Below are positions 11,801-31,344 of a DNA stretch of 64,000 bases, piece by piece; within the stretch, counting starts at the first letter, position 1; each line of letters begins with the position of its first letter. Below the pieces are notes generated by a model, which did no database searches, was not told where the DNA came from, and worked only from the letters and a program-made list of their open reading frames with translations. The translations under genes were made by a program, and so were the position numbers. Source of the stretch: an uncultured Chthonomonadaceae bacterium. GTDB lineage: Bacteria; Armatimonadota; Chthonomonadetes; Chthonomonadales; Chthonomonadaceae. The stretch covers positions 1 to 64,000 of the forward strand of contig CAWIEK010000051.1 of assembly GCA_963835065.1 (NCBI GenBank), in the 5' to 3' direction.

Positions 11801-12292
11801 CTGAACGCGCACGACGAGGCCGCGCTGAAAGCCATCAAAGACGCGGGCGGCGCGTGGGCGTTTTACAACGACGGCAGCCGGTGGACGTTCGGCGCGTACA
11901 TGTACAAGTGCGCGCAGGAGTACGGCATGAAGTTCCGGCTGTCGTGGCACTGGAATGCGGCGGCGGGCGACCCGTACTACGCGCTGGACTGCCGCGAGGA
12001 CGATTACGCCTGGGTAGCCACCAACGCCCGCCGCGAACTGATCCCGGCCATCCACTTCGAGCGCGACATTCGGGGCGGCATAGACGATTACCGCGCCATG
12101 CTGACGCTTTCCCGCCTGCTCCGCGCCCACCCCAACCATCCGAAAGCGGAAGCCGCCCGCCGCCTGCTGGACACAAAACTGGCTTCTTTCCACTTAGGCG
12201 ACCGTGACCACGACGCCAAATGGCCCAAAAGCGAGTACCAAACGTATCGCCGCCAGGTGCTGGAAGCCATTGAGCAGCTAACAGGCAAGTAG
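8853..12292 (+). CDS. Large secreted glycan-active protein (CBM-like domains, Zn-ribbon-like motif, GH123-like C-terminal barrel); split by two probable indels (~9625, ~11670)
   Basis: Three consecutive overlapping ORFs (8853-9656, 9565-11760, 11582-12292) read as one protein; signal peptide ..AKA|QQ; CPDC..CYAC; YNLCDEP. Family assignment tentative. Confidence 0.65.
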
Positions 12293-12394
12293 GTCAGGGT
12301 TTTAGGGTGTTAGGGTTCTATGGTTTTAGGTTAGGTGCGGGGTAATCGCTACCTGAACGTAGACCAAAATAGTCTTCAAGCGCAGAGACATACC

Positions 12395-13386
12395 ATGAGT
12401 TGCGAAACGTTATTCCAATTAGCGCCTACACAACACGCCGAATATCCTCTGGAAATACGCGAGCGGTTCGAGACGCTTCTGCGCGCTAACCCGCAATGTG
12501 TCCACGCAAGGGACTATTCCGGGCATACGCTCCTGCATTGGGCGGCCAATGCCAATCAGACCTACATCGTCGAGTTACTCCTCGCACTGGGCGCTGATGT
12601 CAATGCTCGTACACAGGATGGACATACTCCACTGTATCGTGCGGCAACGTTATGCCTTTCTTGGAGGCTGCGGAACGGCTTCTGGCGCATGGAGCCGACC
12701 CCAACTTGCTAACAGATGGTAATCAGTCGCCTCTATCCGAAGCAGGTTGGTTTTGTCGGAACCCTCAGCAGTCCGAGAAGTTGACTGCCCTGCTTCTGGA
12801 ACATGGCGCCAATCCAGAACAACGGGATATCGATGACAATGTGCCTCTCCACTTTATGCGCTGTCTCGGCGCGTTGCGGCAGATGCTGCGCTACGATGTA
12901 GATGTCAACGCGCAAAACAAGCAGGGAGAAACCCCTCTTCTGGTCGCGGTGCGCGAAGGCTACGATGATATTGCCAAAGCGCTCATTGCGGCGGGCGCGA
13001 ATGTCAATATTCGCAATGCGCAGGGGCAGACACTGCTGCATTTGGCGGTTCTGGATGAGGATTATGGCAACGCGCGCACTGCCCGACTGTTGCTCAAACT
13101 GGGCGCGGACATCAACGCCCGCGACCATGCAGGACGCACCCCCTTGTATCAGGCCGCCAGTTCGCACTTTGCGCCTGGAGTGCGGTTGCTGCTTGCGTCG
13201 GGGGCAGAAGTGAATGCGCGTGATGCCGAAGGCCACACGCCATTGTATGCCGCAGAGGAGGGTTTCTATCTGGGCACTAATCCCTACTATGCGCCTCCTC
13301 CCGAAGGCGAGGGCAACCCGAAGAACTTTGCGAAAGGGCGTAAGAAGATCGCAATGCTGCTGCAGGCAGCGGGCGGGCAAACGTAG
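12395..13386 (+). CDS. Ankyrin repeat protein; probable indel near 12650
   Basis: Repeated GxTPLH/TPLY..A and LL..GADVNARD motifs across ORFs 12335-12712 and 12652-13386. Confidence 0.88.
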
Positions 13387-13507: not shown

Positions 13508-14977
13508 ATGGTATATACCGGCCCATTCCAGAAGAGGCAGAAAAGTATGAAGCAACGACAAATGCAAGGGCGTCGCTGGACGGTTTGCGGCGCAATGATG
13601 CGCCTGCTGTTCTGTGTTGTGCTGCTGGTGGGAATGGCGAACGCGAATGCGCAGCCGGTTCCGGGGCAAACCTGGCAGGCGAAAACGGGTGGCCTGCTCA
13701 TTGTCGCGCCGCAGGCATTCGCGCCCGCCCTTGCCGATTATGTCCGCTACAAGCGTGCGCAGATGCCGACCACATTGGTGACGCTGGAAACCGCGCTGAA
13801 CTCTGCAACGGGCGTGGACGACGCGGAGCGGCTCAAGCGGTATCTGTATAAAGCGTGGCGCGGCCAGCAAATCGGGTACGCGCTGCTGGTGGGCGATGCG
13901 GACGTGCTGCCTGTGCGCTACATGACGCTGGATCGCGTCACGCCTGCCGCTTTCGACTATGCCTTTTATCCGTCCGACCTGTATTACGGCGATCTTGCCC
14001 GCGCGGACGGCAGTTTCGATGATTGGAACGCCAATCGGCAGAGTTTTCATGCGGGCTATTTCGGCGAAGTGCGCGGCGAAAAAAACAAGCACGACCCGAT
14101 GAACTATGACCAAATTACGTACCATCCGAAAGTGGCGGTGGGACGGTGGCCGGTCAGTACGCCCGAAGAAGCCGCACTGGTTGCCGCCAAAACCATGACT
14201 TACGAAACCGGCCTGCGCAGGGGCGACAAAAGCGGCCAGAATCAGGCCGCGCTGTTTGCCGTTGGCGGGTGGGTGGATATGCGCGAACAGATGAACAGCT
14301 TCGCGGCCCTGCTTGCGCCCCACTGGAAGACCGCGCGCTACTTCTACGCCGACGCCCGCAACGACCACACGCCGCCGCCCAATGAAAACGAACTAATTAC
14401 GGCTTTGAATTCCGGCGTCGGGCTGCTGCTTCACGCCGGGCACGGTTCGGACAATACATGGGAAGGCTGTTTCCAAATCCGGCATCTGGATCAGGTACAC
14501 AATGCGGATCGCCTGCCGGTTGTCGTGTCCGCCGGCTGTTCCACCGCCCGGTTTGCCACCCTGCCGCCCTATGAAGGCTACATGGATGTGAACGGGCAGG
14601 AACACCGGGGCACAGATGCGGGCGAAGTGTTCACAAGCCCGCCCCCGCCGCCCGCCTGCTACCAGAAGGGCAAATACAATCCCACCGGATTAGGCGAGCA
14701 ATTGCTGCGGCAGAATAAAAACGGCGCGGTAGCCTACATCGGCTGCAACACGGGCAGTCAGCCGTGCGGCCTGACACTGGTAGACGGCTTCGTACAGGCG
14801 ATTGCCCACACCCCGCAGCCGCGCCTGGGCGACTGCTGGAATCAGGCGATTGTGTACTACTACGACCACGAGCATCTGGCAACGCTTCAGCCCTCCGAGG
14901 ATTGGTATCCCGCCAGTATTTTCTTTCAGGGCATGAAGTTCATGCTGTTCGGCGACCCATCACTGCCGCTGCGCTAA
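13508..14977 (+). CDS. C25 (gingipain) family cysteine peptidase, secreted
   Basis: LLVGD, SDLYY, VGRWP, HAGHGS (catalytic His), SAGCST (catalytic Cys), GAVAYIG, LFGDPS; true start may be a downstream Met. Confidence 0.88.
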   Translation: MVYTGPFQKRQKSMKQRQMQGRRWTVCGAMMRLLFCVVLLVGMANANAQPVPGQTWQAKTGGLLIVAPQAFAPALADYVRYKRAQMPTTLVTLETALNSATGVDDAERLKRYLYKAWRGQQIGYALLVGDADVLPVRYMTLDRVTPAAFDYAFYPSDLYYGDLARADGSFDDWNANRQSFHAGYFGEVRGEKNKHDPMNYDQITYHPKVAVGRWPVSTPEEAALVAAKTMTYETGLRRGDKSGQNQAALFAVGGWVDMREQMNSFAALLAPHWKTARYFYADARNDHTPPPNENELITALNSGVGLLLHAGHGSDNTWEGCFQIRHLDQVHNADRLPVVVSAGCSTARFATLPPYEGYMDVNGQEHRGTDAGEVFTSPPPPPACYQKGKYNPTGLGEQLLRQNKNGAVAYIGCNTGSQPCGLTLVDGFVQAIAHTPQPRLGDCWNQAIVYYYDHEHLATLQPSEDWYPASIFFQGMKFMLFGDPSLPLR

Positions 14978-16781: not shown

Positions 16782-17615
16782 TTGTCAGATATTATCCGAA
16801 CTCATGTCACCATACGGCCCAGCAGCGGCTGGGCCGCCCTGAACTTGCGCGAAGTCTGGCAGTACCGCGACCTACTGCTGACCCTGGCAACGCGCGACCT
16901 CAAATTGCGGTATCGGCAGACAGCGCTTGGCGCGATCTGGGTTATTTTGCAGCCGCTTCTTGCCGCCGGGATTTTCTCGTTCGTGTTCGGCAAAGTGGCG
17001 AAACTTCCCAGTGACGGCAAGCCGTACTTTCTGTTCGCGTATGCCAGCCTGCTCGGATGGAACCTGTTCAGCAATACGCTGCAGCGCGTCAACACGTCTT
17101 TGCTCGGCAACTCGCAGCTTGTTTCCAAAGTATACTTCCCGCGCCTGGTGCTGCCGCTCGCTTCCATTTTCGCCACCATTGTAGACTTCGGCGTTGCCTT
17201 TGCCATGTTCCTGGTGTTGATGGTCGTCAATGGCGTTGTGCCGACGTTGGGCATTTTGCTGCTTCCCTTCTGGCTGCTGCTGTTCCTGCTGCTGGCGATG
17301 GGGGTCGGAATGTTCTGCTCCGCCCTGATGGTAAGCTATCGGGACGTGGGCTATATCGTTCCCGTCATGATCTCGTTTTTGCAGTATGCCAGCCCGGTTG
17401 CGTATTCCACGTCGGCCATTCCCGCCCATCTCCGCGCCTGGTATCTGATGAACCCGGTGGCAAGCATCCTCGAAGGACTGCGCTGGTCACTGCTAGGCTC
17501 GTCCACGATAAGCGCGCCGGGAATCCTGTCGGCGACGATTGTTTCCGTCGCGGCTTTTATCATCGGGGCGTTTGCCTTCAAGCGCATGGAGCGGAGATTT
17601 GCAGATGTCATCTAG
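16782..17615 (+). CDS. wzm: ABC-2 polysaccharide transporter permease
   Basis: RDLKLRYRQTALG, KVYFPR, YRDV..IV, ERRFADVI; multiple TM helices. Confidence 0.93.
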   Translation: MSDIIRTHVTIRPSSGWAALNLREVWQYRDLLLTLATRDLKLRYRQTALGAIWVILQPLLAAGIFSFVFGKVAKLPSDGKPYFLFAYASLLGWNLFSNTLQRVNTSLLGNSQLVSKVYFPRLVLPLASIFATIVDFGVAFAMFLVLMVVNGVVPTLGILLLPFWLLLFLLLAMGVGMFCSALMVSYRDVGYIVPVMISFLQYASPVAYSTSAIPAHLRAWYLMNPVASILEGLRWSLLGSSTISAPGILSATIVSVAAFIIGAFAFKRMERRFADVI

Positions 17616-18924
17616 TGAAGTAGCCGTGTCGGTGCGCGATTTGAGCAAGTCCTATACCATTGCCCACAATGCGGAAAAGCACTCTACCGCAGCGGAAGCG
17701 CTGATGCACCGGCTGAAAAATCCCGGTCAGCGCATAGAAAAAGAGACGTTTTGGGCGCTCAAGGATGTTAATTTCGACATTCAAAAAGGCAATGTGGTAG
17801 GTATTATCGGCAGGAACGGCGCGGGCAAGTCCACGCTGCTCAAAGTCCTCAGCCGCATTACCGAGCCGACAACCGGGCAAATAGACCTGTATGGACGGGT
17901 TGGCAGCCTTTTGGAAGTGGGTACGGGGTTCCACCCGGAATTGACAGGCAGAGAGAATATCTATCTGAACGGCGCGATTTTGGGCATGAACCGTAAGGAG
18001 ATTGCGCGGGAGTTCGACGCCATTGTAGATTTTTCGGGCACGGAGAAGTTTCTGGATACGCCGGTGAAGCGGTATTCGAGCGGCATGTATGTGCGGCTTG
18101 CCTTTGCCGTCGCCGCGCACCTGAACCCCGAAATCCTGATTGTGGATGAAGTTCTCGCTGTCGGGGATGCCGAATTCCAGAAGAAGTGCATGGGCAAAAT
18201 GAAGGATGTGGCGCACAGTGGGCGCACCATTCTGTTCGTCAGCCACAATATGACCGCCATCGCAGCCTTATGCAGTCACGTCGTTTGGATGGACGGCGGC
18301 AAGGTGCGGGATTACGATATGACCCGGCGCATTGTGTCCGCTTATATGAACGCCTCGTATGCGCAAAATACGGATCGCTCCTGGGATATTTCCGAAGATG
18401 CGCCGGGCAACAATCAGGCGCGTATCTGGAAAGCCCGCGTTGGCGCTGACGAGCGCCCTCGTTCTGAGGCCGTCACCGTTCGCACTCCCCTGGTCATAGA
18501 GTTTGAATACGAAAACTATGTGCCCGGAGCCTGCCTGAATTTAAGTATTGTGGTAACGAATGAAGAAGGGGCTGCCGTTTTCAACTCGTTCCCGATTACG
18601 GAACCGGAGTGGAATGGACACCCCTTTCCGGCAGGCGTGTTCCGCAGTTCCTGTTACGTGCCGGGAGACTTGCTGAACGACGGCACTTACTCTGTTGATT
18701 TGTACATTGTCCGCGACTATGCGAACGTTGTCTATCACCATGCCGAGATTTTGTCCTTTGAAGTACAGGATTCGCCCGACCTGCGCGGCGCGTGGCATGG
18801 CGATTGGATCGGCGCGGTACGGCCCAATCTGCGCTGGACAACCCAACTGCTGCGGGAACCTGCGCAGGTTCCTGCCGATGCGCTGTCCGTTGAGACGGCG
18901 GCGCTGACTTTTGCCAAGGGGTAG
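17605..18924 (+). CDS. wzt: ABC polysaccharide transporter ATPase with C-terminal Wzt_C domain (copy 1)
   Basis: GRNGAGKST, YSSGM, LIVDE, VSH; ~180-aa C-terminal domain; overlaps wzm stop. Confidence 0.93.
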   Translation: MSSSEVAVSVRDLSKSYTIAHNAEKHSTAAEALMHRLKNPGQRIEKETFWALKDVNFDIQKGNVVGIIGRNGAGKSTLLKVLSRITEPTTGQIDLYGRVGSLLEVGTGFHPELTGRENIYLNGAILGMNRKEIAREFDAIVDFSGTEKFLDTPVKRYSSGMYVRLAFAVAAHLNPEILIVDEVLAVGDAEFQKKCMGKMKDVAHSGRTILFVSHNMTAIAALCSHVVWMDGGKVRDYDMTRRIVSAYMNASYAQNTDRSWDISEDAPGNNQARIWKARVGADERPRSEAVTVRTPLVIEFEYENYVPGACLNLSIVVTNEEGAAVFNSFPITEPEWNGHPFPAGVFRSSCYVPGDLLNDGTYSVDLYIVRDYANVVYHHAEILSFEVQDSPDLRGAWHGDWIGAVRPNLRWTTQLLREPAQVPADALSVETAALTFAKG

Positions 18925-19187
18925 TGAGGGAAGCGTTGGCAAAAGGGCAGGCAGAAAAAAATATGTAGAGTGCATCGTCGAAATCTTGGCAATACAGCGC
19001 TTCCAGCCCGATGTCTCGTTGTGTCAAATTGTAGGAGAGAGGCGTCGTGACCTCCAAAGCGTCAGGGCGAACGGGCGGGGTGAAACATAGGCTTTGCACC
19101 TCCCTTCCTGTGGGTATAACGTCTGTATAGTAGACGTGTGTACTACTCTTTAGACGGCGGTGTGGGGCAAAAGGTTCACTTCTTTCG

Positions 19188-19212
19188 AGGGCGCAATAAA
19201 TTGCGCCCCTAC
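19188..19212 (-). repeat. GTAG-type REP palindrome
   Basis: Minus strand GTAGGGGCGCAATTTATTGCGCCCT, identical to 23669-23693. Confidence 0.8.
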
Positions 19213-19260
19213 GTTCGGGAAGTTAAAAATTTACAGGCTGTAAGTAAAAGTGAGGTAAGA

Positions 19261-19971
19261 ATGAATTGGCATCGTGTCGCCCGCGTTTTTGGCGTTGCAT
19301 CGCCGCATCTGATGACCGCGATCAAATCCGCGCAAAATGAAGTTTCCATCGCGCGCCAATCCAAACAGGCTTACCAGCGTTTGCGCGAGATGCCGGAGCG
19401 GAACCTGCGGGTGCATCTTGGATGCGGCGGGGATGTTCGCGAGGATTGGCTCAACATTGACCTGCCGATTCCGCAGGGAACGGGAAGCTCGCTCCCGGAC
19501 AGCGCGAACCTGGTTATTTATGATCTGCGACAGGGGCTGCCCCTTCCCGATAATTCTTGCGATTACATCTACTCGTCGCACTTTTTTGAACATCTGGAGT
19601 ACGCGGAGGGCGTGAATTTGATGCGCGATTGTTATCGCTGCCTGGGAGCCGGAGGCGTTTTTCGCGCCGCCCTGCCCAACCTGGCCGCTGTCTTTCGCGC
19701 TTACCTGGCGGACAATGAAAGCCATTTTGCCGACATTGATGCCAACGCGCTGGCAACGCGAACACCCCGCACCGCCGCGATAGTGGATTGGATCAACTAC
19801 GGCGTTTATCAGTTCGGGGAGCATAAATGCATTTATGATGAGGAAAAACTGATTCTCGTTTTGCGCGACATTGGCTTTTCCAAAGCCTGCGCGTCGGAAT
19901 TCAAGATGGGAATTGATGTTAATTCCGAGATGCGCAAAACCCATTCCTTTTACGTCGAGGCTGTCAAATAA
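19261..19971 (+). CDS. Class I SAM-dependent methyltransferase
   Basis: VHLGCG, LPLPDNSCDYIYSSHFFEH, L..GG.F; GAGGT RBS before 19261. Confidence 0.85.
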   Translation: MNWHRVARVFGVASPHLMTAIKSAQNEVSIARQSKQAYQRLREMPERNLRVHLGCGGDVREDWLNIDLPIPQGTGSSLPDSANLVIYDLRQGLPLPDNSCDYIYSSHFFEHLEYAEGVNLMRDCYRCLGAGGVFRAALPNLAAVFRAYLADNESHFADIDANALATRTPRTAAIVDWINYGVYQFGEHKCIYDEEKLILVLRDIGFSKACASEFKMGIDVNSEMRKTHSFYVEAVK

Positions 19972-20011
19972 AACAGTATGTGATTATTTATGAGGATGTT
20001 GAGGAGCAATT

Positions 20012-20677
20012 TTGACGGCATCGGCAAAAACTCGCGTTGTCGTATGGGGCGTCGGTGGACACGCGCTCGTCGTTGCGGATATTCTGCGCTGTTCGCCTGA
20101 TTACGCTTTGGAAGGCTTTCTGATAGATGCCGCGAACAGCGCGTTTACGAGAGAATCCCTGCGGCCTTTGCTGCTTGGCGGGGCGGAATGTCTGGACAGG
20201 CTTCGCGCCGCCGGGATTGTAAACGCAGTGGTGGCGATTGGCGACTGCAAAACCCGGCTTGAAGTCGGGGACTGGCTGAAATTGAACGGTTTTAATCTTG
20301 CCGTCGTCATACATCCTAAGGCGATTCTTGCCGATGATACACGCATCGGCGCAGGCACGGTGATTGCGGCAGGCGCGATTGTCAGTCCCGGCGTTACAAT
20401 CGGCGAAAATGTCATTGTTAACACGGGCGCTACCGTAGACCATGAGTGCCGGCTTGCGGATGGCGTTCATGTGTCGCCCGGAGCGCATCTTGCGGGGCGT
20501 GTTATTGTGGAACGGGGCAGTTGGATCGGTATGGGCGCAAATGTCATAGACGGCATTCGCATTGGCGCGAACAGCATCATCGGAGCAGGCTCCGCCGTCG
20601 TCCGACATATACCCGACAACGCCGTGGCTTACGGCGTGCCGGCAAAGGTTATGAAGGAGAATAACAGTGGTTTATAG
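20012..20677 (+). CDS. NeuD/PglD-type sugar acetyltransferase (hexapeptide repeat)
   Basis: WGVGGHA, VAIGD, VIHP, VDHEC, YGVPAK; GAGGAG RBS before TTG. Confidence 0.9.
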   Translation: MTASAKTRVVVWGVGGHALVVADILRCSPDYALEGFLIDAANSAFTRESLRPLLLGGAECLDRLRAAGIVNAVVAIGDCKTRLEVGDWLKLNGFNLAVVIHPKAILADDTRIGAGTVIAAGAIVSPGVTIGENVIVNTGATVDHECRLADGVHVSPGAHLAGRVIVERGSWIGMGANVIDGIRIGANSIIGAGSAVVRHIPDNAVAYGVPAKVMKENNSGL

Positions 20678-21887
20678 TTCTTCAGCGGTGAAGAGTCTGG
20701 CGCTTCTTGGGAGTAAGCCGGCCTTTGCCGAGCCGCTTCACGTCGGACGGCCCAACATCGGTAATCGTGAAAAATTGATGGAGCGCCTCAACGACATGCT
20801 GGATCGGCGCTGGCTTTCCAATGACGGCGTTCTGGTGCAGGAGTTTGAACAGCGTATTGCGGATATGGTTGGCGTCAAGCATTGCATTGCCATGTGCAAC
20901 GCGACCATTGCGCTGGAAATCGCCATTCGCGCGGCGGGACTTACCGGGGAAGTGATCGTTCCTTCCTTTACCTTTATCGCCACCGCCCATGCCGTGCAAT
21001 GGCAGGAAATCACGCCTGTTTTTTGCGACGTGGACAGCGATACGCACAACATTGACCCTGATGTCATCGAGCGCATGATTACGCCGCGCACGACGGGGAT
21101 TATCGGCGTTCACGTTTGGGGCCGGCCCTGCGCTGTTGATGAATTGAGCGAGATTGCCGACCGTCACAATCTGACCCTGATGTTCGACGCGGCTCATGCT
21201 TTTGGCTGCTCGCATAAGGGTAAAATGATCGGGAATTTTGGCGAGGCGGAAGTGTTCAGCTTTCACGCAACCAAGTTTCTCAACACGTTTGAGGGCGGCG
21301 CGGTTGTCACCAACAACGATGATCTGGCGGTGAAGATGCGCCTGATGAAAAACTTCGGATTTGCCGGCTACGACAATGTTATCTACATCGGCACGAACGG
21401 CAAAATGACGGAAGCCGCCGCCGCGATGGGATTGACCAGCCTGGACAGCATGGAAGACTTCATCGAAACCAATTACCGCAACTACGCGCAGTATCGCCGG
21501 GAATTGACGCGGCTGCCCGGTATTCGCGTGATTGATTATGATAACGCGGAGCGCAACAACTATCAATACGTGGTTGTAGAGGTGGATGAGGATAAGGCGG
21601 GACTGAACCGCGATCAGCTTGTGGAAGTGCTGTGGGCGGAGAATGTTCGCGCCCGCCGGTACTTCTATCCCGGCTGTCATCAGATGGAACCGTACCGCTC
21701 CAACTTCCCACACGCCGGACTGCTGCTGCCGCGAACGGAAAAACTCTCCAATCAGGTGTTTATCCTGCCGACAGGCACGGCGGTAGGTCCGGCAGAGATT
21801 AACGCCATCTGTGGGATTGTTGAAACGGCTCTCGCGCAGGCAGATGCCGTGCGGCGGCATCTGAACATGCCCCAACTTGTGGCGTAA
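20667..21887 (+). CDS. DegT/DnrJ/EryC1/StrS sugar aminotransferase (DesI/VioA-like)
   Basis: FDAAHAFG, SFHATK (PLP Lys), EGGA, RRYFYP. Confidence 0.93.
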   Translation: MVYSSSAVKSLALLGSKPAFAEPLHVGRPNIGNREKLMERLNDMLDRRWLSNDGVLVQEFEQRIADMVGVKHCIAMCNATIALEIAIRAAGLTGEVIVPSFTFIATAHAVQWQEITPVFCDVDSDTHNIDPDVIERMITPRTTGIIGVHVWGRPCAVDELSEIADRHNLTLMFDAAHAFGCSHKGKMIGNFGEAEVFSFHATKFLNTFEGGAVVTNNDDLAVKMRLMKNFGFAGYDNVIYIGTNGKMTEAAAAMGLTSLDSMEDFIETNYRNYAQYRRELTRLPGIRVIDYDNAERNNYQYVVVEVDEDKAGLNRDQLVEVLWAENVRARRYFYPGCHQMEPYRSNFPHAGLLLPRTEKLSNQVFILPTGTAVGPAEINAICGIVETALAQADAVRRHLNMPQLVA

Positions 21888-21931
21888 CCTTTCAGCGCAA
21901 CGATGTATCTGACTAAAGGTTTGGAACAGCA

Positions 21932-22802
21932 TTGAGAAAAATTAAACAGCGGATTCAACGATTCATTGATATTTATCAATCTAATACAATTGAAAGAACT
22001 CAAATTCTGGAGCAACAAATCAGGACGTTGACGGAGCAGCAGGAGGGTCTTTTTCTGCGCCTGGAGGAAGTAAGCAGCCGACTTGAGGTAAACCCCGATC
22101 TTGTTGACGATTTCCGGGCCTGGAAAGCCGCCCATACTCTGCCCCAAAACCCGAAGGTGTCGTGCTGCGTGGCAACCTACAATCGTTCGCAACTGCTGGT
22201 GGAACGCTGTATTGCCTCCATTCAGCGACAAACGTACAGCAATTGGGAACTGATCGTTGTCGGCGACCACTGCACGGACGATACGGCAGACGTGATTGCA
22301 AAACTCGGTGACGCGCGCATCCGGTTTGAAAACCTGCCTGTTCGCGGCCCTTATCCTGAAGACCCGCGCAAGCGCTGGATGGTGGCAGGCACGTTTGCCA
22401 TGAATAAAGCCTTGTCTTTAGCGAGCTGGCGACTACATCACGCATTTGGATGATGATGACGAACACGCGCCGGAGCGCATGGCGCAGTTGGTGGCGTTCG
22501 CCGGAGCAAACGCTCTGGATTTCGTCTGGCATCCGTTCTGGTATACAGATTACGCGGGAGATTGGCAAGTCAATGAAGCCCCCGAATTTGGCCGGGGACA
22601 GGTGACAACCTCCTCGGTTTTTTACCGCCAGTGGTTCAAAAACATAGGATGGGATATAAACGCGCACAAACTGCTGGAACCGGGCGACTGGAATCGCTTC
22701 CGGCGCATCCGCTACTTAAAACCGGATAGCGCGCGCTACCCGGAACCATTGCTCAGACACTATCCCGAAAACACGCAGCACCGAGCGCAGCCGAATTCGT
22801 AA
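21932..22802 (+). CDS. GT2 glycosyltransferase with N-terminal coiled coil; probable indel near 22425
   Basis: VATYNR, ELIVVGD..TD; GDYITHLDDDD continues in the shifted frame. Confidence 0.8.
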
Positions 22803-22859
22803 TCATTACACCGAATACCGACATACGGCTTTTTCAGGATAAATACCCGGACATATCAA

Positions 22860-23672
22860 GTGCAAGCAAGTAATCACGACAAGCCCGGTTTCCATATTGC
22901 CACCATTGCCAACCGACTCGACGAGTACGCGGCGATGAAAGCAAGTTTTTTGCAGGCAGGCTTTACGGAGCCTGCCTGTCGCTATACCCTTCTGGACAAC
23001 TCAAACGGCAATAACCACGAGCCTTACAGCGCCATCAACCGCCTGATTGCCGCCACTACGGAACCCTATCTGATTGTCTGCCATCAGGACATTCGGCTGG
23101 ATCAAGGGCACGGCTATGAGCGGCTGACGCAGCTTCTGGCGGAATTAACGGCGCTTGACAATAAGTGGGCAGCAGCGGGCAACGCGGGGGGCCGGGTGCA
23201 TGAAGCGACAAGTCATCTGGTAGACCCACACGGCGCTCACAATACCGCGCCGCTTCCCCACGAAGTGTACACGCTTGATGAAAACCTGCTGATCCTCCGC
23301 ATGTCCCGCAAACCCGCCGCTTCGCCCGGACTTTCCGGTTTTCACCTGTATGGGGCCGATGTTTGTTTGAATTCCATGCGGCAGGGGTATACTTCTTATA
23401 TCATTGATTTTCGCCTGACGCATTTAAGCGGTGGCAGCCCCGAAAGCGACGCCTTCGCGCAGGCCAAGCAGAAATTTGAAGCGTACTGGAGTCGGCGTTT
23501 CTGGCTGTGCCTGCTGAAAACAACGTGTACGGAGTTGACGTTAAGCCGCCTGCCGGTTGTGCGAACTCAGTTGCTTAATAAAGTCAACCGGAGCCGGGTT
23601 TATAATCATATCAACCTGTACTACAAAGCCGCCAATTTTGCGAACAGGTTCCGCTCAAATAAAAATTCGTAG
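22860..23672 (+). CDS. Glycosyltransferase-like (GT-A fold) hypothetical protein
   Basis: LIVCHQD, V.TLDE, FHLYGADVCL; operon context. Confidence 0.6.
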   Translation: MQASNHDKPGFHIATIANRLDEYAAMKASFLQAGFTEPACRYTLLDNSNGNNHEPYSAINRLIAATTEPYLIVCHQDIRLDQGHGYERLTQLLAELTALDNKWAAAGNAGGRVHEATSHLVDPHGAHNTAPLPHEVYTLDENLLILRMSRKPAASPGLSGFHLYGADVCLNSMRQGYTSYIIDFRLTHLSGGSPESDAFAQAKQKFEAYWSRRFWLCLLKTTCTELTLSRLPVVRTQLLNKVNRSRVYNHINLYYKAANFANRFRSNKNS

Positions 23673-23736
23673 GGGCGCAATTTATTGCGCCCTCTGCCGG
23701 ACCGGTTATTGCGGGCGTGATGAATCACGCCCCTAC
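23669..23736. repeat. Inverted REP doublet (REPIN/BIME-like)
   Basis: GTAGGGGCGCAATTTATTGCGCCCT (23669-23693) and oppositely oriented GGGCGTGATGAATCACGCCCCTAC (23713-23736). Confidence 0.82.
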
Positions 23737-23768
23737 AACCCTTATTTGAATAGAAAGGAAATTTGCCG

Positions 23769-25045
23769 ATGTCCTCCAGCGATATTGCCGTGTCGGTGCG
23801 CGACCTGAGCAAGTCCTATATTATTGCCCACAACGCGGAAAGGCACTCGACGGCGGCGGAAGCGCTGATGCACCGGCTGAAAAATCCGCGTCAGCGCGTG
23901 GAAAAAGAAGAGTTCTGGGCGCTTAAGGACATCAACTTCGATATTAAGAGGGGGGATGTGGTCGGCTTCATCGGCAGGAACGGGGCGGGCAAGTCCACGC
24001 TGCTCAAAGTGCTGTCAGCCGCATTACGGAGCCGACAACGGGGCAGATTGATCTTTACGGGCGGGTTGGCAGCCTGCTGGAAGTGGGTACGGGCTTTCAT
24101 CCCGAACTGACAGGCAGAGAGAATATCTACCTGAACGGCGCGATTTTGGGCATGAACCGCAAGGAGATTGCGCGGGAGTTCGACGCCATTGTGGATTTTT
24201 CGGGTACGGAGAAGTTTCTGGATACGCCGGTGAAGCGGTATTCGAGCGGCATGTATGTGCGCCTCGCGTTTGCCGTCGCCGCGCACCTGAACCCCGAAAT
24301 CCTGATTATTGACGAAGTGCTTGCTGTGGGCGACACCGAATTCCAGAAGAAGTGCCTGGGCAAAATGAAGGATGTCGCCAAAAGCGGGCGTACCATCCTT
24401 TTTGTCAGCCATCAGGAAGCGGCGGTGCGGCAGTTGTGTACGTCCGCCATTTTGCTGAATGCCGGCAAGTTGGTGGTGGCGGGGCATCCCGATGAGGTGT
24501 ATGACCAGTATCGGGTTCGGCGCACGACAACCGGTTTTTCCACGGTAAACCGAACCATGTCCAGCCCGGAACTGCAATGCGAGGACGCTTACTTTTCCTA
24601 TCGCGGCATTGACACGACGGAAATTCCCAGTGGCGCGCAGCCCGATCTGACGCTGGTGATTCGGGTGAATTCCCGGTGTACCTTCACGCCCGAAGTGGTG
24701 TTTCGCAATGCTCAGGGTGTACAGGTGCTGTTCGGCTGCCACTGGTACGCCAATGGCGAAGCGTATACCTTTGATCCGGGCGTGTATGAAATGACGTATA
24801 AATTCCAGTTACCGTATCTGGTCACGGGGCGCTACAGCGTTGACTTTGTTATTTCCGATCCGTGTGTGCGCTATCTGGACTTTATTGAGGAGGCTTTGGA
24901 TTTGTACGTCACGTCGCCGATTAATTCGGCCACAGGGTTTAAGTTCGACCAGTCCTTCGGGCGCGGGTGCATTTACGTGGAAGCAGAAGAAGTGAGCGTG
25001 GTTTCTAAATCAGAAGAGTTCGACAAGAGTTATTCTCAGGTGTGA
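23769..25045 (+). CDS. wzt: ABC polysaccharide transporter ATPase (copy 2) with a different C-terminal domain; probable indel near 24015
   Basis: NBD nearly identical to copy 1 up to ILFVSH, then unrelated; frameshift at GTGCTGTCAGCCGC relative to copy 1. Confidence 0.88.
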
Positions 25046-25108
25046 ACTTTCTTATGAACAGGATGGCTGTTCGTCGGCGTCGCTTTGTGAAACACATCAG
25101 GAGAAGGT

Positions 25109-25876
25109 ATGGGGTTTAGAATCAGAGGCCGTATCAACGCATGGATTGCGCATACGCGCAATCGCTTTCTCGTGTGGCGCGTGGATACGGTAAAACAACA
25201 GGGCAATCTTTTCCGCACCCGCGCGCTGAGGCGGCGATACGCCCTGCCGGAAATAGACATCAAGGAAATCGCTTCCCGCCCCGTCGCGCTGCCGGAACTG
25301 ATTATGGACGACATCGGCATGCCGCCTTATGTCGAAACCATCGAGCATGATGATATTCGGCCCCTGCTGACGATTGCGGCGGGCTTGCAGTCGCGCGTGA
25401 TTGTGGAATTGGGAACGGCGTATGGCAACTCAACGGCAAATCTGTGCAAAGTCTGTCCCGAAGCCACGATTTATACGGTGAACGCGCCTGCCGAAGAGCA
25501 GTCGGGCGAACTGGTCACGTTTGAACTGACCCGCGAACAGGTGGGGCGCGTGTATCGCAAGGCCGGTTACGGGGACAGAGTGGTTCAGATATTCAAGAAC
25601 ACGCTGGAACTCGACCTGTCGGAGTACCTGCCGCAGCCGATGGTAGATTTGGCGATCATAGATGCCTGCCATGACACGGACTTTGTGATCAACGACTTTC
25701 ACAAGGTAAAATCGTTCATCAAGCCGGGCGGCGTTGTGGTGTTCCACGATACGCACCCCAGCCTTTGGCGGCATACGTTTGGCAGCTACATCGCCTGCAT
25801 GAAACTGCGCCAACAGGGATTCGATATACGCCATCTGCGCTCGACCTGGTGGGGCGTGTGGAAAAACAGCGAGTAA
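25109..25876 (+). CDS. Class I SAM-dependent methyltransferase (Methyltransf_24-like)
   Basis: IVELGTAYGNS, DLAIIDACH, IKPGGVVVFHD. Confidence 0.85.
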   Translation: MGFRIRGRINAWIAHTRNRFLVWRVDTVKQQGNLFRTRALRRRYALPEIDIKEIASRPVALPELIMDDIGMPPYVETIEHDDIRPLLTIAAGLQSRVIVELGTAYGNSTANLCKVCPEATIYTVNAPAEEQSGELVTFELTREQVGRVYRKAGYGDRVVQIFKNTLELDLSEYLPQPMVDLAIIDACHDTDFVINDFHKVKSFIKPGGVVVFHDTHPSLWRHTFGSYIACMKLRQQGFDIRHLRSTWWGVWKNSE

Positions 25877-25885
25877 CCCGGTTTC

Positions 25886-27109
25886 ATGAAACTTTTATTC
25901 ATTTCCGGTACCTTGCCGCCAAAGTCGTCTCCTGAAGGCATCCATACCGCCATGCTTTGCAGGCATTTTGCCGCGCAGGGCATTGATGTTCACCTGTTGA
26001 CGACAAAGCAGGAGGGTATCCCAACGGATTTGCCCTGCGCCGTTTATCCGATCATGGAAAAATGGGACTGGTCGGAAATGCCGCGCATGGCCCGATTCAT
26101 TCGCCGCTGCAAACCCGACGCCGTACTGCTGATGTACCTGGGGTTTATGTACGGCAATGAGGCGATGGTGACGTTTGCGCCTACGGTGTGCAGGCGGCTT
26201 CTGCCCCGGCGCGTAAAATTTATCACGCAGTTTGAAAATTTCATGGGCGCGGACACCAAAACCAAATTCTCCAATGATTTCCGCCGACTGCTGACGCGAC
26301 TGCAAGGCAGGCAGGGCGTCAGCCGGGAATTCGGAACCCTGCTGAAGGACAGCGACCATATCATTTTCCTGAGCCGCAACCACTTCGATCAGGCGAAAGA
26401 GCATTTTGATGTTACCTACCAGCATGTGCCTATCGAAGCCAAATCCAGCGTGATTCCCGCGCCGCCCGTGATGGAACGGATCGCGCCCGACCCGGCCCGC
26501 GCCCGCGCCGAAGAGCGCGCCAAATTGGGACTGGAACCGGACGCGCCCTTAATTTTGTACTTCGGGTTTCTTTATCTCGGCAAAGGCATTGACACCCTGG
26601 TTCGCGCCTTTCAGCAGTTAAGCGCGCGCTTTGACAACGCCAAACTCATCATTGTCGGCGGCGTCGTGGATTATAGCGACCCTGCTCTAAACGAGCCTGT
26701 CAGGATGTTTCACGCTTTGCCCAAAGAGCTTGGCATTGAGGATAAGGTGATCTGGACGGGATTTTTGGACTCCAGTACCGATCTGGCGTCACGGTATATG
26801 TATGCCGCCGACCTGTGCGTCCTGCCGTTCGACTTTGGCGTACAATTGAATAACAGTTCGCTTGCGGTGGTGATGAACCACAATCTGCCGGTCATTTCCA
26901 CGCGAGGCGAACACCTGGAACCGGAGTTTAAACACAAAGAGAATATCTACTTATGCCCTCCCAAAGAGCCGGCGATACTGGCAAGCGCAATGGAAGAGGT
27001 TCTTACGGATACCGGGTTGTATGATCAGTTGGTGAGCGGCGCGCAGCAAATGTCCCGCGAACTTTTTTCCTGGGAAGAAGCCGTCAAACGAACTATCGCT
27101 TTATTTTGA
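25886..27109 (+). CDS. GT4 glycosyltransferase
   Basis: ILYFGFLYLGKGIDTL, AADLCVLP, PVIST. Confidence 0.87.
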   Translation: MKLLFISGTLPPKSSPEGIHTAMLCRHFAAQGIDVHLLTTKQEGIPTDLPCAVYPIMEKWDWSEMPRMARFIRRCKPDAVLLMYLGFMYGNEAMVTFAPTVCRRLLPRRVKFITQFENFMGADTKTKFSNDFRRLLTRLQGRQGVSREFGTLLKDSDHIIFLSRNHFDQAKEHFDVTYQHVPIEAKSSVIPAPPVMERIAPDPARARAEERAKLGLEPDAPLILYFGFLYLGKGIDTLVRAFQQLSARFDNAKLIIVGGVVDYSDPALNEPVRMFHALPKELGIEDKVIWTGFLDSSTDLASRYMYAADLCVLPFDFGVQLNNSSLAVVMNHNLPVISTRGEHLEPEFKHKENIYLCPPKEPAILASAMEEVLTDTGLYDQLVSGAQQMSRELFSWEEAVKRTIALF

Positions 27110-28081
<972 letters not shown>

Positions 28082-28084
28082 AAT

Positions 28085-29212
28085 ATGACCAAATTGCGCG
28101 TCCTGCTGATACTGCACGAACTGAGTTTGTCCGGCGCTCCCAAAGTGGCGCTTGAACTCTTTGCGGAATTTGCGGCCAGTGTTGAAGTCCACATTTTTTC
28201 TATCCTGGATGGCCCGCTGCGCGAACAAGCGAGTATGCTTGGCATGGTGACAAACATTCAGGACTTGCAGAAATCCCAAACTCTGTCGGAGCGGATTGCT
28301 CGCAAAACGAAACGCGCCCGTCTGGAAACGCTGCTGCGGCATTGGAAACCCGATGTGATTTACGTCAACAGCGTGGCCGCCCTGCCCGCCCTGCCGCTCA
28401 TGGATTATACATCCGCGCCCGTTTTGCTCCATGTGCATGAGATGGAGGCCGTTATCCGCTTCCTTACGGGCGGGGAGCCGTCCCTGCTGCGAGAAAGACC
28501 CACAGGCTACGTTGTGGTTTCTGAAGCGGTCAAGCGCGCGCTGACCGGCGCGTTTGCCATTGACGCCGCTAAAATCACGGTCATCCATGCGTCCATCTCG
28601 CCTCCGAAGCAACAGACAATTTCGATGGCGATACCGAAGGCAGACAATGCGCCTTTTGTCGTCGGCGGAGCGGGAACCCCGGAAATGCGCAAGGGCATCA
28701 CGCTCTGGCTGCAAATGGCGTCGGAACTGATGTCCAAAGTCGGCGCAGACAAGGTGCGCTTCCAGTGGGTGGGGGTTCGGGACAATCTTGATGGACAATT
28801 GTTTCGCGTCATGGCGCAAAAAATGGGCTTAGAAGCCAGCGTGGAGTTTATTCCGCTGACGCCTGAACCATTGGCCTATTTCGCCGGGTTCGACCTGCTT
28901 GCCATGACCTCGTGGGAAGACCCGTGTCCGCTCGTGGTACTGGAAGCCATGCTGCTGGAAAAGCCTGTCGCCTATTTTATGGGGAGCGGAGGCGCTGTGG
29001 AGGAAACAGGCGATACCGGACTTGCGATCTCCGATTTCTCCCCCGGCGCGATGGCGGATGCTATTGCCGATCTGATGCAGTCGCCGGAACGCCGTGCCGA
29101 CATGGGCAAACGCGCCCGCGCCCGCGTCCTGGAGAATTTTGTTACGTCGGTACAAGCGCCTAAAATCGAACAGCAGATTCGCCTGTTAGCCGGTCAAAAC
29201 GCCCCGCGCTGA
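28085..29212 (+). CDS. GT4 glycosyltransferase
   Basis: HELSLSGAP, HVHE, RKG, TSWEDPCPLVVLEAM. Confidence 0.87.
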   Translation: MTKLRVLLILHELSLSGAPKVALELFAEFAASVEVHIFSILDGPLREQASMLGMVTNIQDLQKSQTLSERIARKTKRARLETLLRHWKPDVIYVNSVAALPALPLMDYTSAPVLLHVHEMEAVIRFLTGGEPSLLRERPTGYVVVSEAVKRALTGAFAIDAAKITVIHASISPPKQQTISMAIPKADNAPFVVGGAGTPEMRKGITLWLQMASELMSKVGADKVRFQWVGVRDNLDGQLFRVMAQKMGLEASVEFIPLTPEPLAYFAGFDLLAMTSWEDPCPLVVLEAMLLEKPVAYFMGSGGAVEETGDTGLAISDFSPGAMADAIADLMQSPERRADMGKRARARVLENFVTSVQAPKIEQQIRLLAGQNAPR

Positions 29213-29229
29213 ACAGATGCTTCAAGAGC

Positions 29230-29253
29230 GGGCTTGATGAATCAAGCCTCTAC
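29230..29253 (-). repeat. GTAG-type REP palindrome variant
   Basis: Minus strand GTAGAGGCTTGATTCATCAAGCCC; compensatory stem change relative to 23713-23736. Confidence 0.75.
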
Positions 29254-29308
29254 AGCACGAACTTTTTATGCGCCGCTTGGTATAAATCTAATTAAAGTGC
29301 AAGAAATA

Positions 29309-30289
29309 ATGCAAACAAATATATCTATTATCGTCCCGGTTTACAATGCGGCAAAGTTTCTGGCGCGGACGCTGCAAAGCGTACAGGCGCAGACCGTGTC
29401 CGATTGGGAACTGATTGCCGTTGACGACGGCAGCAAAGATTGCAGCGCGGACATTGCGCGGGAGTTTGTGGCACAGGACGCGCGGATTCGCCTGGTACAG
29501 CAGGCAAATGGCGGCGTGGCGGCGGCGCGGAACCGGGGGTACGCGGAAACTAATCCCGGCTCTTCTTACATCATTTTTCTCGACAACGATGATTTATGGG
29601 CCTCGGACATGCTGGAGAAACTTCTGCAAGCGCTGGCGGTTCATCAGGATTGCGCGGCGGCGCATGGCAGGGCCGTGCTGATTGACAGTCAGGAACAGCC
29701 GTATGTCACGGATGAACTCAATCCGTACTTTGCAGTGGTGGAAGAGTTTTTGAGCCACCGCTCTATGGTACAGGGAAACCAGATTGTGGATCGCGCGCCT
29801 TCCGAAACCACGACGTTCAACCATTTTGCCGTGCGCAACTGCATCGTGTCGCCGGGCTGTGTCCTGTTCCGCCGCTCCGCGCTGCCCGCCGCGCCGCTCT
29901 TCGATCTTCAGACCGTTCCCAGCGATGATTGGGATTTGTATCTGAATGTGAGTCGCTCACGGCCCTTTGCCTACATCCCGGAAGCGGTCTTTTATTACCG
30001 CATTCATGATTCCAATGCCTCCGGCAACGTCGAAAAGATGCATGCGTCCGGCAAATACGTGCGCCAGAAAGCCTTCAAAACGTACGCGAACGCGCCCCAC
30101 CTCCACGATGCGCTGGTGCAGGGCGCGCTGGCTCCGTATCACGAAAAAAGAACCGAGCGTTTGCGCTGGATGCGCGACTGCCTGCACGAAGGGAAGTTGG
30201 TCGCCGCGCTTCAGCAGGGCTTGCAAACGCTCAAAATCGCGCGCGAAATGCGCCAATTCCGGCTCCAAAACAAAAAGGCAGCCTCCTGA
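29309..30289 (+). CDS. GT2 glycosyltransferase
   Basis: SIIVPVYN, ELIAVDDGSKD, NGGVAAARN, FLDNDD, SDDWD, YRIH. Confidence 0.9.
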   Translation: MQTNISIIVPVYNAAKFLARTLQSVQAQTVSDWELIAVDDGSKDCSADIAREFVAQDARIRLVQQANGGVAAARNRGYAETNPGSSYIIFLDNDDLWASDMLEKLLQALAVHQDCAAAHGRAVLIDSQEQPYVTDELNPYFAVVEEFLSHRSMVQGNQIVDRAPSETTTFNHFAVRNCIVSPGCVLFRRSALPAAPLFDLQTVPSDDWDLYLNVSRSRPFAYIPEAVFYYRIHDSNASGNVEKMHASGKYVRQKAFKTYANAPHLHDALVQGALAPYHEKRTERLRWMRDCLHEGKLVAALQQGLQTLKIAREMRQFRLQNKKAAS

Positions 30290-30325: not shown

Positions 30326-31276
30326 TCAGACAGGGCGCTGCGCTTGCTTGCGGCGGCGCAGGAAGGCAATGCCGCTCAGGGCGGAAGCGGCAAGTAAGGC
30401 CACAGTTCCGGGTTCGGGAACCGCGACGCCGAACGCGAGATTGGCAATCAATTGATGGCCGGGCGCGGTAGGATGCAGGTTGTCCCAATACAGGTAGGTG
30501 TTGGGGTCGCCCACAAGCGTGTTCAGGTAGGAATGAGTCACGTCCGCATAACCATACTGCGCCGGGTTGGACACGATCTGATTGTACAGGGCGTTGTCGT
30601 CGAGCAGAAAGAAGGTGTCGCCGGGAAGCGTCAGGCGCAGCATCTGAAGGGATTGGTTCAGCAGAGTATCATGCACGGCGGCAAGCTGATGGAGAACAGG
30701 GGACGCCGGTGTGCCGATGACATTCGGCAGTTGTCCCAAATCCGACAGGTTGGCAACCAGAAATGTACGCGCGCCGTGCGCGGCCAACTGGTTGATTTCG
30801 CCGGTAAGGTTGGCAACCGGCTTGGTGGGATCGGTCTGCCCGTTCAAATAATCGTTGCCGCCGCCCCACAGGATGTACAGGGCATTGGGGTCAACCACAG
30901 GATGCGCGATGAGGTAGCCCGCCACTTCGGTCTGCATCCCCGGCAGCCTGCTGTCAACATTGGTGGTGTCGGTATGCGCGCCGCCATACGCAAAATCCTC
31001 GGTAGGCTGGCTGACCACGCCGGGGATCGCGGCCAGGTCATCAACCCAGATCGGGCCGTTGGAAAAGCGACCGTTATAATAGGGGGGAGGCGGAACCGTT
31101 CCCATGCTTGCGGCGAAAACGTTGCCGTTATCGGAGATGCTGTCGCCGAAGACAACTAATTTGCTGTACGCCTGCGCCTGCGCCCCGCGTGGCGCGCTTG
31201 CCAGAACCGCGCAAGCCGCCAGGCCGAGCGACAGCGAACGGCCAAACCGTGACAGGGAAAAAGAGAGTCGAGACAT
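30326..31276 (-). CDS. SGNH/GDSL hydrolase with PEP-CTERM sorting signal
   Basis: FGDSISD.G, GRFSNG, GGNDY, WDNLHPT; C-terminal VPEP + TM + RRRK; signal peptide AQA. Confidence 0.92.
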   Translation of the reverse strand: MSRLSFSLSRFGRSLSLGLAACAVLASAPRGAQAQAYSKLVVFGDSISDNGNVFAASMGTVPPPPYYNGRFSNGPIWVDDLAAIPGVVSQPTEDFAYGGAHTDTTNVDSRLPGMQTEVAGYLIAHPVVDPNALYILWGGGNDYLNGQTDPTKPVANLTGEINQLAAHGARTFLVANLSDLGQLPNVIGTPASPVLHQLAAVHDTLLNQSLQMLRLTLPGDTFFLLDDNALYNQIVSNPAQYGYADVTHSYLNTLVGDPNTYLYWDNLHPTAPGHQLIANLAFGVAVPEPGTVALLAASALSGIAFLRRRKQAQRPV

Positions 31277-31304
31277 AGTTAAGTTCAGGCTTCCTTTCAT
31301 GAAG

Positions 31305-31344
31305 AAGCAGTGGGTCAGGAATGTGACTTCCTGACCCACTGCTT
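31305..31344 (-). terminator. Intrinsic terminator-like hairpin after the RRM gene
   Basis: 17-bp perfect stem AAGCAGTGGGTCAGGAA/TTCCTGACCCACTGCTT, 6-nt loop. Confidence 0.7.

What the first reader, a model, noticed from the sequence alone, without database searches (positions are those of the whole stretch)
16782..25876. One Wzm, two Wzt with different C-terminal domains, each paired with its own methyltransferase
Seen: wzt1 (17605) and wzt2 (23769) have near-identical ATPase domains, with long stretches differing only at synonymous sites, and diverge abruptly after the H-loop ILFVSH. Each is followed by a different SAM methyltransferase (19261, 25109), and there is one wzm. REP elements lie after wzt1 and just before wzt2. 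Known: Wzt C-terminal carbohydrate-binding domains recognise terminal caps such as the methyl(phosphate) added by WbdD in E. coli O9a. Inference: interchangeable 'cap writer + cap reader' modules could let one permease export two differently capped glycans, or form hetero-dimeric transporters.
Basis: partly seen in the sequence, partly recalled or inferred. Interest (0 to 1): 0.72.

Follow-up and report, generated by a model that had tools for sequence, protein, structure and literature searches.

The report
One glycan channel, two sugar-reading motors
A soil bacterium's surface-sugar export cluster has one channel gene and two motor genes with nearly identical engines but very different sugar-reading tails, so one channel likely exports two differently ended sugar chains, an untested variant of a known exporter.

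Summary
Confirmed: one wzm, two wzt whose ATPase halves are 92% identical and whose C-terminal domains are distant Wzt carbohydrate-binding domains (CBDs), each followed by a different methyltransferase. The 2-nt frameshift in wzt2 is probably an assembly error: close strains encode an intact 424-aa Wzt2, and 9 of 86 tested places in this assembly change frame. The genome holds two other wzm genes, each with its own wzt, so Wzt2 must borrow a permease; extra or unlinked wzt genes recur in the family. The two ATPase halves show patchy gene conversion. The 'writer plus reader' pairing holds only in part. The MT2 family sits directly behind wzt in 17 of 33 loci, but beside unrelated CBDs. The Wzt1-type CBD tracks amino-sugar (DegT) genes, not MT1. 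Single-Wzt clusters can carry both methyltransferase types. Neither enzyme shows the coiled coil of WbdD-type terminators. LpxC and KdtA were not found, so the glycan is probably not O-antigen. Best reading: one shared permease, two Wzt that read different chain ends; a mixed dimer is untested. This scan noted twin-Wzt loci before on other DNA; I found no paper describing them.

The parts
16782..17615 (+). wzm, ABC-2 permease, 277 aa
   Evidence: Pfam ABC2_membrane E 3e-20
17605..18924 (+). wzt1, ATPase plus CBD type 1, 439 aa; overlaps the wzm stop
   Evidence: ABC_tran, Wzt_C; catalytic motifs intact
17938..18093 (+). wzt1 codons 112-163: tract nearly identical to wzt2 24104-24259 at synonymous sites, likely gene conversion
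   Evidence: 5 differences in 50 codons, shuffle p 0.007; no such tract against wzt3
18972..19213 (.). intergenic repeats, including a REP-like palindrome at 19187-19213
   Evidence: dozens of copies genome-wide
19261..19971 (+). MT1, stand-alone SAM methyltransferase, 236 aa
   Evidence: Methyltransf_11 E 2e-7
20012..20677 (+). NeuD/PglB/VioB-family sugar acetyltransferase
   Evidence: TIGR03570 above cut-off
20667..21887 (+). DegT aminotransferase, closest to DesI/VioA (dTDP-4-amino-4,6-dideoxyglucose)
   Evidence: TIGR04427 557 bits, cut-off 650
21932..22802 (+). GT2 with a short N-terminal coiled-coil-like segment; one extra base near 22427 in this assembly
   Evidence: close-strain contig lacks the base; intact 289-aa P0173; crude heptad score
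22860..23672 (+). GT2-like protein without a Pfam hit
   Evidence: ESM Atlas neighbours carry Glyco_tranf_2_5 in 51-78% of members
23668..23737 (.). REP-like inverted pair just before wzt2
   Evidence: replaced by other letters in the X1 strain
23769..25045 (+). wzt2, ATPase plus CBD type 2; 2 extra bases near 24013 in this assembly, 424 aa when intact
   Evidence: CBD model pLDDT 87, best structural matches are four Wzt CBD entries, Z 14-16
25109..25876 (+). MT2, stand-alone SAM O-methyltransferase of a conserved wzt-linked family, 255 aa
   Evidence: Methyltransf_24 E 5e-19
25886..27109 (+). GT4 glycosyltransferase
27119..28081 (+). GDP-fucose-synthase-like epimerase/reductase
   Evidence: NF047922 297 bits, cut-off 500
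28085..29212 (+). GT4 glycosyltransferase
29234..30289 (+). GT2 glycosyltransferase, last gene of the cluster

Best explanation
The cluster encodes one Wzm permease and two Wzt ATPases with near-identical motors and different carbohydrate-binding domains, and both Wzt likely dock on the same Wzm so that it would export lipid-linked glycans with two different chain ends. Shown: the gene layout, an intact Wzt2 in close strains, the CBD fold, no spare wzm, and patchy identity of the ATPase halves. Inferred: a wzt2-MT2-GT4-epimerase-GT4-GT2 block was added behind a wzm-wzt1-MT1-acetyltransferase-DegT-GT2 block; gene conversion keeps the Q-loop/helical region that grips Wzm the same in both; Wzt1 reads an end built from an N-acetylated 4-amino-6-deoxy sugar, possibly added by the coiled-coil GT2 and possibly methylated; Wzt2 reads an O-methylated end made by MT2. 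Homodimers of each Wzt are the default; mixed dimers may form. The acceptor is probably a surface protein or another non-LPS carrier.
For: Intact Wzt2: an X1 contig anchored in the gene upstream of wzt2 runs on in frame, and three X2/X3 contigs (copy not assignable) lack the 2 bases; P0123 (424 aa) has the same longest-contig length, 382,757, as cluster-mates of Wzm, Wzt1, MT1, ORF22860 and MT2; 9 of 86 tested places in this assembly change frame. No spare permease: 3 wzt to 2 wzm of this subfamily in G000. Trans-pairing is common in the family: wzt exceeds wzm in 3 of 18 genomes that have the subfamily, and in 8 of 18 the two lie on different contigs or over 1 Mb apart (flanks read for 5 of the 8). 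Docking region: 0 residue differences Wzt1/Wzt2 in codons 91-150 against 10 for Wzt2/Wzt3. Conversion: tract p 0.007; all 3 ATPase differences between P0123 and window Wzt2 go to the Wzt1 residue, 2 of 5 in the other direction. MT2 directly behind wzt in 17 of 33 loci against 14 of 54 for any methyltransferase behind any wzt. CBD1 with DegT 6 of 9 vs 8 of 61. LpxC and KdtA not found, controls positive.
Against: No expression or glycan data. Wzt2 could use the C60 Wzm, which is 70% identical. The longest-run test for conversion was not significant (p 0.10), and ATPase cores are conserved anyway: P0002 is 89-91% identical to both. The DegT association is not corrected for kinship and rests on 9 loci. 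CBD2 does not resemble the CBDs that accompany MT2 elsewhere (rank 60 of 108). The Aquifex methyl-cap pocket residues are not kept in CBD2 (read by hand against PMC9445017). No Wzt1-type CBD from the 853,304-nt contig that holds the Wzt2 and MT2 orthologues appeared among 79 representatives, so the two-Wzt state may be young and confined to this species.
Confidence: 0.55

Rival explanations
1. Strict cap-writer plus cap-reader cassettes: MT1 methylates the end read by CBD1 and MT2 the end read by CBD2, and each pair moves as a unit.
For: wzt(CBD1 46%)-MT1(44%)-acetyltransferase(52%) is kept in G016, another genus. Wzt2 and MT2 orthologues share a longest-contig length of 853,304. MT2 is behind wzt in 17 of 33 loci. 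L097 has two wzt, each followed by a different methyltransferase. Wzt-WbdD-WbdA vary together in P. syringae (PMC7820976, passages).
Against: MT2 goes with at least 7 unrelated CBD clusters. MT1 is within 4 kb of a CBD1-type wzt in 0 of 9 non-seed loci. A single-Wzt cluster carries five methyltransferases, MT1-like and MT2-like among them. No coiled coil or transmembrane helix in MT1 or MT2 by a crude scan.
Confidence: 0.17
2. One glycan, two readers on one pump: Wzt1 and Wzt2 form a mixed dimer, or Wzt2 serves mainly as a CBD donor in trans, and together they check two features of the same chain.
For: All genes lie on one strand in one cluster with one permease. The ATPase dimer motifs are identical. 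CBDs dimerise by strand exchange and can work in trans (PMC9445017, passages).
Against: The CBDs are 14% identical by profile alignment and their C-terminal segments differ. Each CBD type occurs alone in other genomes, so neither needs the other.
Confidence: 0.13
3. Wzt2 works with the C60 Wzm or with either permease, as a free module in a pool of three near-identical ATPases and two permeases.
For: The three ATPase halves are 86-92% identical and the two Wzm 70%. Wzm and wzt are often unlinked in the family.
Against: Wzt2 matches Wzt1, not Wzt3, in codons 91-150, and it lies in the C51 cluster.
Confidence: 0.1
4. wzt2 is a leftover of a captured cassette, redundant or decaying, and the frameshift is real in this strain.
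For: The source reads could not be examined. wzt2 and the GT2 at 21932 are both broken in this assembly.
Against: Both genes are intact in close strains. CBD2 is 79% conserved in three orthologues. Frame changes are frequent across the assembly.
Confidence: 0.05

Closest known systems
Cap-dependent Wzm/Wzt O-antigen exporters: Aquifex aeolicus (PDB 8DKU, 7K2T, 6O14), E. coli O9a (2R5O), O12 (5HNO)
   Same: Wzm permease, Wzt ATPase with a C-terminal CBD of the same fold; modifying enzymes encoded next to wzt.
   Different: Two Wzt with unlike CBDs for one Wzm; stand-alone methyltransferases without a ruler; Aquifex pocket residues not kept; LpxC and KdtA not found in the host.
Pseudomonas syringae CPA 'TET' operon (wzm-wzt-wbdD-wbdA; PMC7820976, passages read)
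   Same: wzm conserved while wzt, methyltransferase and glycosyltransferase vary as a block.
   Different: There the blocks are alternative alleles in different strains; here two blocks sit together behind one wzm.
Geobacillus stearothermophilus S-layer glycan export (wzm-wzt-wsaE; PMC2943079, passages read)
   Same: Wzm/Wzt export of a 2-O-methyl-capped glycan to a protein acceptor in a host without LPS; methyltransferase gene right behind wzt.
   Different: WsaE fuses the methyltransferase to polymerising domains; one Wzt.
Massilia violaceinigra locus with two wzt (PMC9834719, passage read)
   Same: Two annotated wzt near one wzm.
   Different: The authors could not verify the domain of one copy and drew no mechanism.

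Membership tests
Wzm/Wzt glycan ABC exporter with CBD | ABC-2 permease gene next to the ATPase gene | tested here: met
   wzm overlaps wzt1; wzt2 has none of its own
Wzm/Wzt glycan ABC exporter with CBD | Intact Walker A, signature, Walker B and H-loop in both Wzt | tested here: met
   (Wzt1 and the intact P0123)
Wzm/Wzt glycan ABC exporter with CBD | C-terminal domain of Wzt CBD fold, Wzt2 | tested here: met
   model pLDDT 87; 6O14 Z 16.4, rmsd 3.0, 141 aligned; 5HNO Z 16.0; 2R5O Z 14.1; next unrelated row Z 10.5; profile hits 8DKY E 1e-7
Wzm/Wzt glycan ABC exporter with CBD | C-terminal domain of Wzt CBD fold, Wzt1 | tested here: met
   Wzt_C E 1e-6 (over cut-off); hhalign to the CBD2 profile 97%; no model was built
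Capped-glycan systems of the O9a/O12 type | Chain terminator with a coiled-coil ruler (hallmark recalled from Mann et al. 2019; consistent with PMC11231755 passages) | tested here: inconclusive
   MT1 and MT2 show no coiled coil or anchor in a crude scan; the GT2 at 21932 has a short heptad segment
Capped-glycan systems of the O9a/O12 type | CBD binds the terminal cap and export needs it | not testable with these tools
   needs binding and knockout assays
WbdD methyltransferase-kinase | Methyltransferase fused to kinase and coiled coil | tested here: not met
   236 and 255 aa single-domain proteins; no WbdD entry among PDB sequence hits at E up to 1
Aquifex-type 3-O-methyl cap reader | Asn313, Thr346, His350, Trp362 pocket | tested here: inconclusive
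   hand reading of low-identity alignments puts His, Asp and Ser at the first three in CBD2; the fourth lies beyond the aligned stretch
LPS O-antigen export | Host makes lipid A-Kdo | tested here: not met
   LpxC and KdtA not found in a 92% complete genome, controls positive; incompleteness is a caveat
Co-varying CBD and methyltransferase pairs | One methyltransferase family goes with one CBD type | tested here: not met
Mixed-dimer ABC ATPase | Wzt1 and Wzt2 bind each other | not tested

The most novel reading that the evidence does not exclude
A glycan exporter with exchangeable heads: one Wzm takes either of two Wzt, or a mixed pair, and gene conversion holds the docking surface constant while the sugar-reading domain and its downstream modification genes are swapped as cassettes. 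One channel thereby exports two differently ended glycans, one ending in an N-acetylated amino sugar and one in an O-methyl group placed by an uncharacterised, cross-phylum family of stand-alone terminators (MT2), onto a non-LPS carrier.
Probability: 0.3. Interest if true: 0.72.

Novelty: new variant of a known kind. Interest (0 to 1): 0.5.

Why it matters
Studied Wzm/Wzt exporters have one Wzt and one cap specificity. A natural one-permease, two-reader locus tests directly whether specificity lies wholly in the CBD and whether unlike Wzt can share or mix on one channel, which matters for building glycan export lines. It also yields two testable leads: the MT2 family as ruler-less, wzt-linked methyltransferases across at least five phyla, and a CBD type linked to amino-sugar ends.

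Tried and rejected
No RNA holder was listed for the region. Raw reads of the source sample were not available; only contigs of related strains were laid. The two 187-nt X1 contigs could not be assigned to copies, because one carries several wzt3-like bases, so I do not count them as evidence of conversion. REP-like units as cassette borders: rejected as specific, they are genome-wide and flank other genes. GC and GC3 show no step at the ATPase/CBD junction. The promoter and terminator scan gave nothing interpretable. The full-length Wzt2 model was poor (pLDDT 56); its fold search only repeats the sequence result. Complex prediction of CBD1 with CBD2 was not available, so there is no verdict on binding. 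MT1 had no match at E 1e-35 in 300 other genomes of the phylum (G016 was not among those listed). L097 could not be extended to look for its wzm. Mann et al. 2019 (Glycobiology 29:822) and Mann et al. 2016 were not held, and a guessed PMC id gave an unrelated paper; the 2019 census may describe multi-Wzt loci, and I could not check it or its supplements. Paper searches for a description: 'two wzt'/wzm, wzt1/wzt2, Wzt with gene conversion/heterodimer, second/additional/orphan/paralog wzt; I saw listings only, except PMC9834719, and none described the mechanism.
Full report
Setting. The window is G000:C51:1-64000 of an 8.0-Mb, 71-contig genome, 92% complete. No call names the organism; I take it for an Armatimonadota member from recalled traits only. 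Strains about 96-97% identical occur in biocrust and soil metagenomes.

Observation. The + strand cluster 16782-30289 reads wzm, wzt1, MT1, NeuD/VioB-type acetyltransferase, DesI/VioA-like DegT, GT2, GT2-like, wzt2, MT2, GT4, Fcl-like epimerase, GT4, GT2. Wzt1 and Wzt2 differ at 16 of 211 residues up to the H-loop and at 21 of the next 30. The tails align at 14% identity by profile. Both are Wzt CBDs: a CBD2 model (pLDDT 87) matches 6O14, 5HNO, 7K2T and 2R5O at Z 14-16, above unrelated rows at Z 10.5 or less; CBD1 rests on Pfam and profile evidence. The REP-like units exist but are genome-wide.

The frameshift. wzt2 has 2 extra bases near 24013. In run X1 a 1,575-nt contig that covers the upstream gene and the wzt2 start continues in frame; three contigs from X2 and X3 lack the 2 bases, though they may belong to either copy. 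A 424-aa intact Wzt2, P0123, has the same longest-contig length (382,757) as cluster-mates of Wzm, Wzt1, MT1, ORF22860 and MT2; co-location is inferred from that length. In this assembly 9 of 86 tested places change frame, counting wzt2 itself and one place twice, and the GT2 at 21932 is likewise broken here and whole elsewhere. The break is most likely an assembly error, or private to this strain.

Is there a spare permease? The genome has wzm-acyltransferase-wzt3 on C60 (Wzm 70% identical) and a distant wzm-wzt pair without CBD on C2. So three related wzt face two related wzm. Of 30 family genomes searched, 18 have this Wzt subfamily; wzt outnumbers wzm in 3 (G000, G001, G009), wzm outnumbers wzt in G007 (1:0, not among the 18), and in 8 the two genes lie on different contigs or, in single-contig G005, 1.34 Mb apart (flanks read for 5). 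Three genomes of one genus in a sister family also have an extra wzt, but with CBDs 36-39% alike. Among 80 metagenome loci, one (L097) has two such wzt 8.5 kb apart, each followed by a different methyltransferase; its wzm is not in the 21 kb held. Working with a permease encoded elsewhere therefore looks ordinary in this group.

Gene conversion. Synonymous differences between wzt1 and wzt2 are patchy: 5 in 50 codons at 112-163 (shuffle p 0.007, one window size), with no such tract against wzt3; the longest-run test gave p 0.10. Wzt1 and Wzt2 are identical in residues 91-150, where Wzt3 differs from Wzt2 at 10; by general ABC knowledge this Q-loop/helical region grips the permease. All 3 ATPase differences between P0123 and window Wzt2 change to the Wzt1 residue, and 2 of 5 between P0129 and window Wzt1 change to the Wzt2 residue. 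Against three Wzt2 orthologues, P0123 sides with Wzt1 at 8 sites (4 also shared with Wzt3, so uninformative) and with the orthologues at 5. The tree joins Wzt1 with Wzt2 and P0002 at 95/93.

Writer and reader pairing. A methyltransferase follows wzt directly in 14 of 54 scanned metagenome loci (54 of 63 next genes, near-duplicates and fragments dropped), so two in a row is only mildly unusual. MT2 belongs to a conserved family (244 hits). Of 33 genome loci from Planctomycetota, Acidobacteriota, Verrucomicrobiota, Chloroflexota and Bacteroidota records, it lies directly behind wzt in 17, further within the locus in 4, and without a wzt in the DNA held in 12, six of which are short. That ties it to export. 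But those CBDs fall into at least 7 unrelated clusters, and CBD2 ranks 60 of 108 on their joint profile. For CBD1, wzm-wzt-MT1-acetyltransferase is kept in G016. Outside the seed set, among de-duplicated loci with 4 kb or more downstream, CBD1-type wzt have DegT within 4 kb in 6 of 9 against 8 of 61 (Fisher p 0.0014, kinship not corrected) and MT1 in 0 of 9. In two Pyrinomonadaceae genomes a single wzt of CBD1 type sits with DegT, an acetyltransferase and both an MT1-like and an MT2-like gene; one cluster was scanned and has five methyltransferases, and wzm and wzt counts are 3:3. One methyltransferase per Wzt is thus not the rule. MT1 and MT2 are single-domain and show no ruler; the GT2 at 21932 has the best heptad segment of eight proteins in a crude scan.

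Substrate. LpxC and KdtA were not found, so O-antigen is unlikely. PEP-CTERM proteins are present. Wzm/Wzt export of methyl-capped glycans to proteins is known from S-layer systems (PMC2943079, passages). I identified no initiating transferase within the cluster.

Mechanism. Most likely (0.55) both Wzt use the adjacent Wzm and read different chain ends: CBD1 an amino-sugar end, CBD2 an end methylated by MT2. Layout, intactness, fold and conversion signal are shown; partner choice, ligands and the mixed dimer are inferred or untested.

Comparison with what is known. It works like the cap-dependent exporters (PMC9445017 and PMC11231755, passages) and resembles the exchangeable TET block of P. 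syringae (PMC7820976, passages). It fails the WbdD and LPS features, and the terminator hallmark is inconclusive. Four searches found no paper on one Wzm with two unlike Wzt beyond a passing mention in PMC9834719; Mann et al. 2019 could not be read. Earlier notes of this scan report twin-Wzt loci in three other genomes; they are unchecked, and one prompted my conversion test. Verdict: real, a new variant of a known kind, interest 0.5.

Noticed in passing
window 8853-12292 and 12335-13386: A large carbohydrate-active-looking gene appears as three overlapping ORFs and an ankyrin-repeat-like gene as two, probably further assembly indels.
   Followed up: no
G000:C60:116000-174000 (L001-L003): A long polysaccharide region with chain-length and export-like genes, an exosortase-like gene, a flippase-like gene and wzm-acyltransferase-wzt3-GT4-FkbM-DegT; wzt3 has a CBD1-type tail and a DegT 73% identical to the window's. 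Labels other than those scanned are by eye.
   Followed up: partly
G000:C2:98137-99792 (L004): A third wzm-wzt pair; the Wzt is 255 aa and has no CBD.
   Followed up: partly
L097:1549-12186: Two wzt with different tails 8.5 kb apart, followed by a TylF-like and a Methyltransf_23 gene; no wzm in the 21 kb held.
   Followed up: partly
L166:2328-3857: wzm directly followed by an MT2-family gene, with no wzt in the 12.5 kb held.
   Followed up: no
L161 and L149: A record labelled Bacteroidales has a CBD 90% identical to a Gemmatales one: misbinning or recent transfer.
   Followed up: no
L028:11117-13784 (G001): The extra wzt of the same-genus genome, 2 Mb from wzm, is followed by a DDE transposase gene.
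   Followed up: partly
L125, L128, L130 (G033, G034, G039): An extra wzt without adjacent wzm; a methyltransferase precedes it in the two scanned, and in two it is followed by the same glycosyltransferase family as a paired copy.
   Followed up: partly
window 30326-31339 (-): GDSL lipase-like protein with a PEP-CTERM tail directly after the cluster.
   Followed up: no
window 13508-14977: Peptidase C25 (gingipain-like) family gene upstream of the cluster.
   Followed up: no
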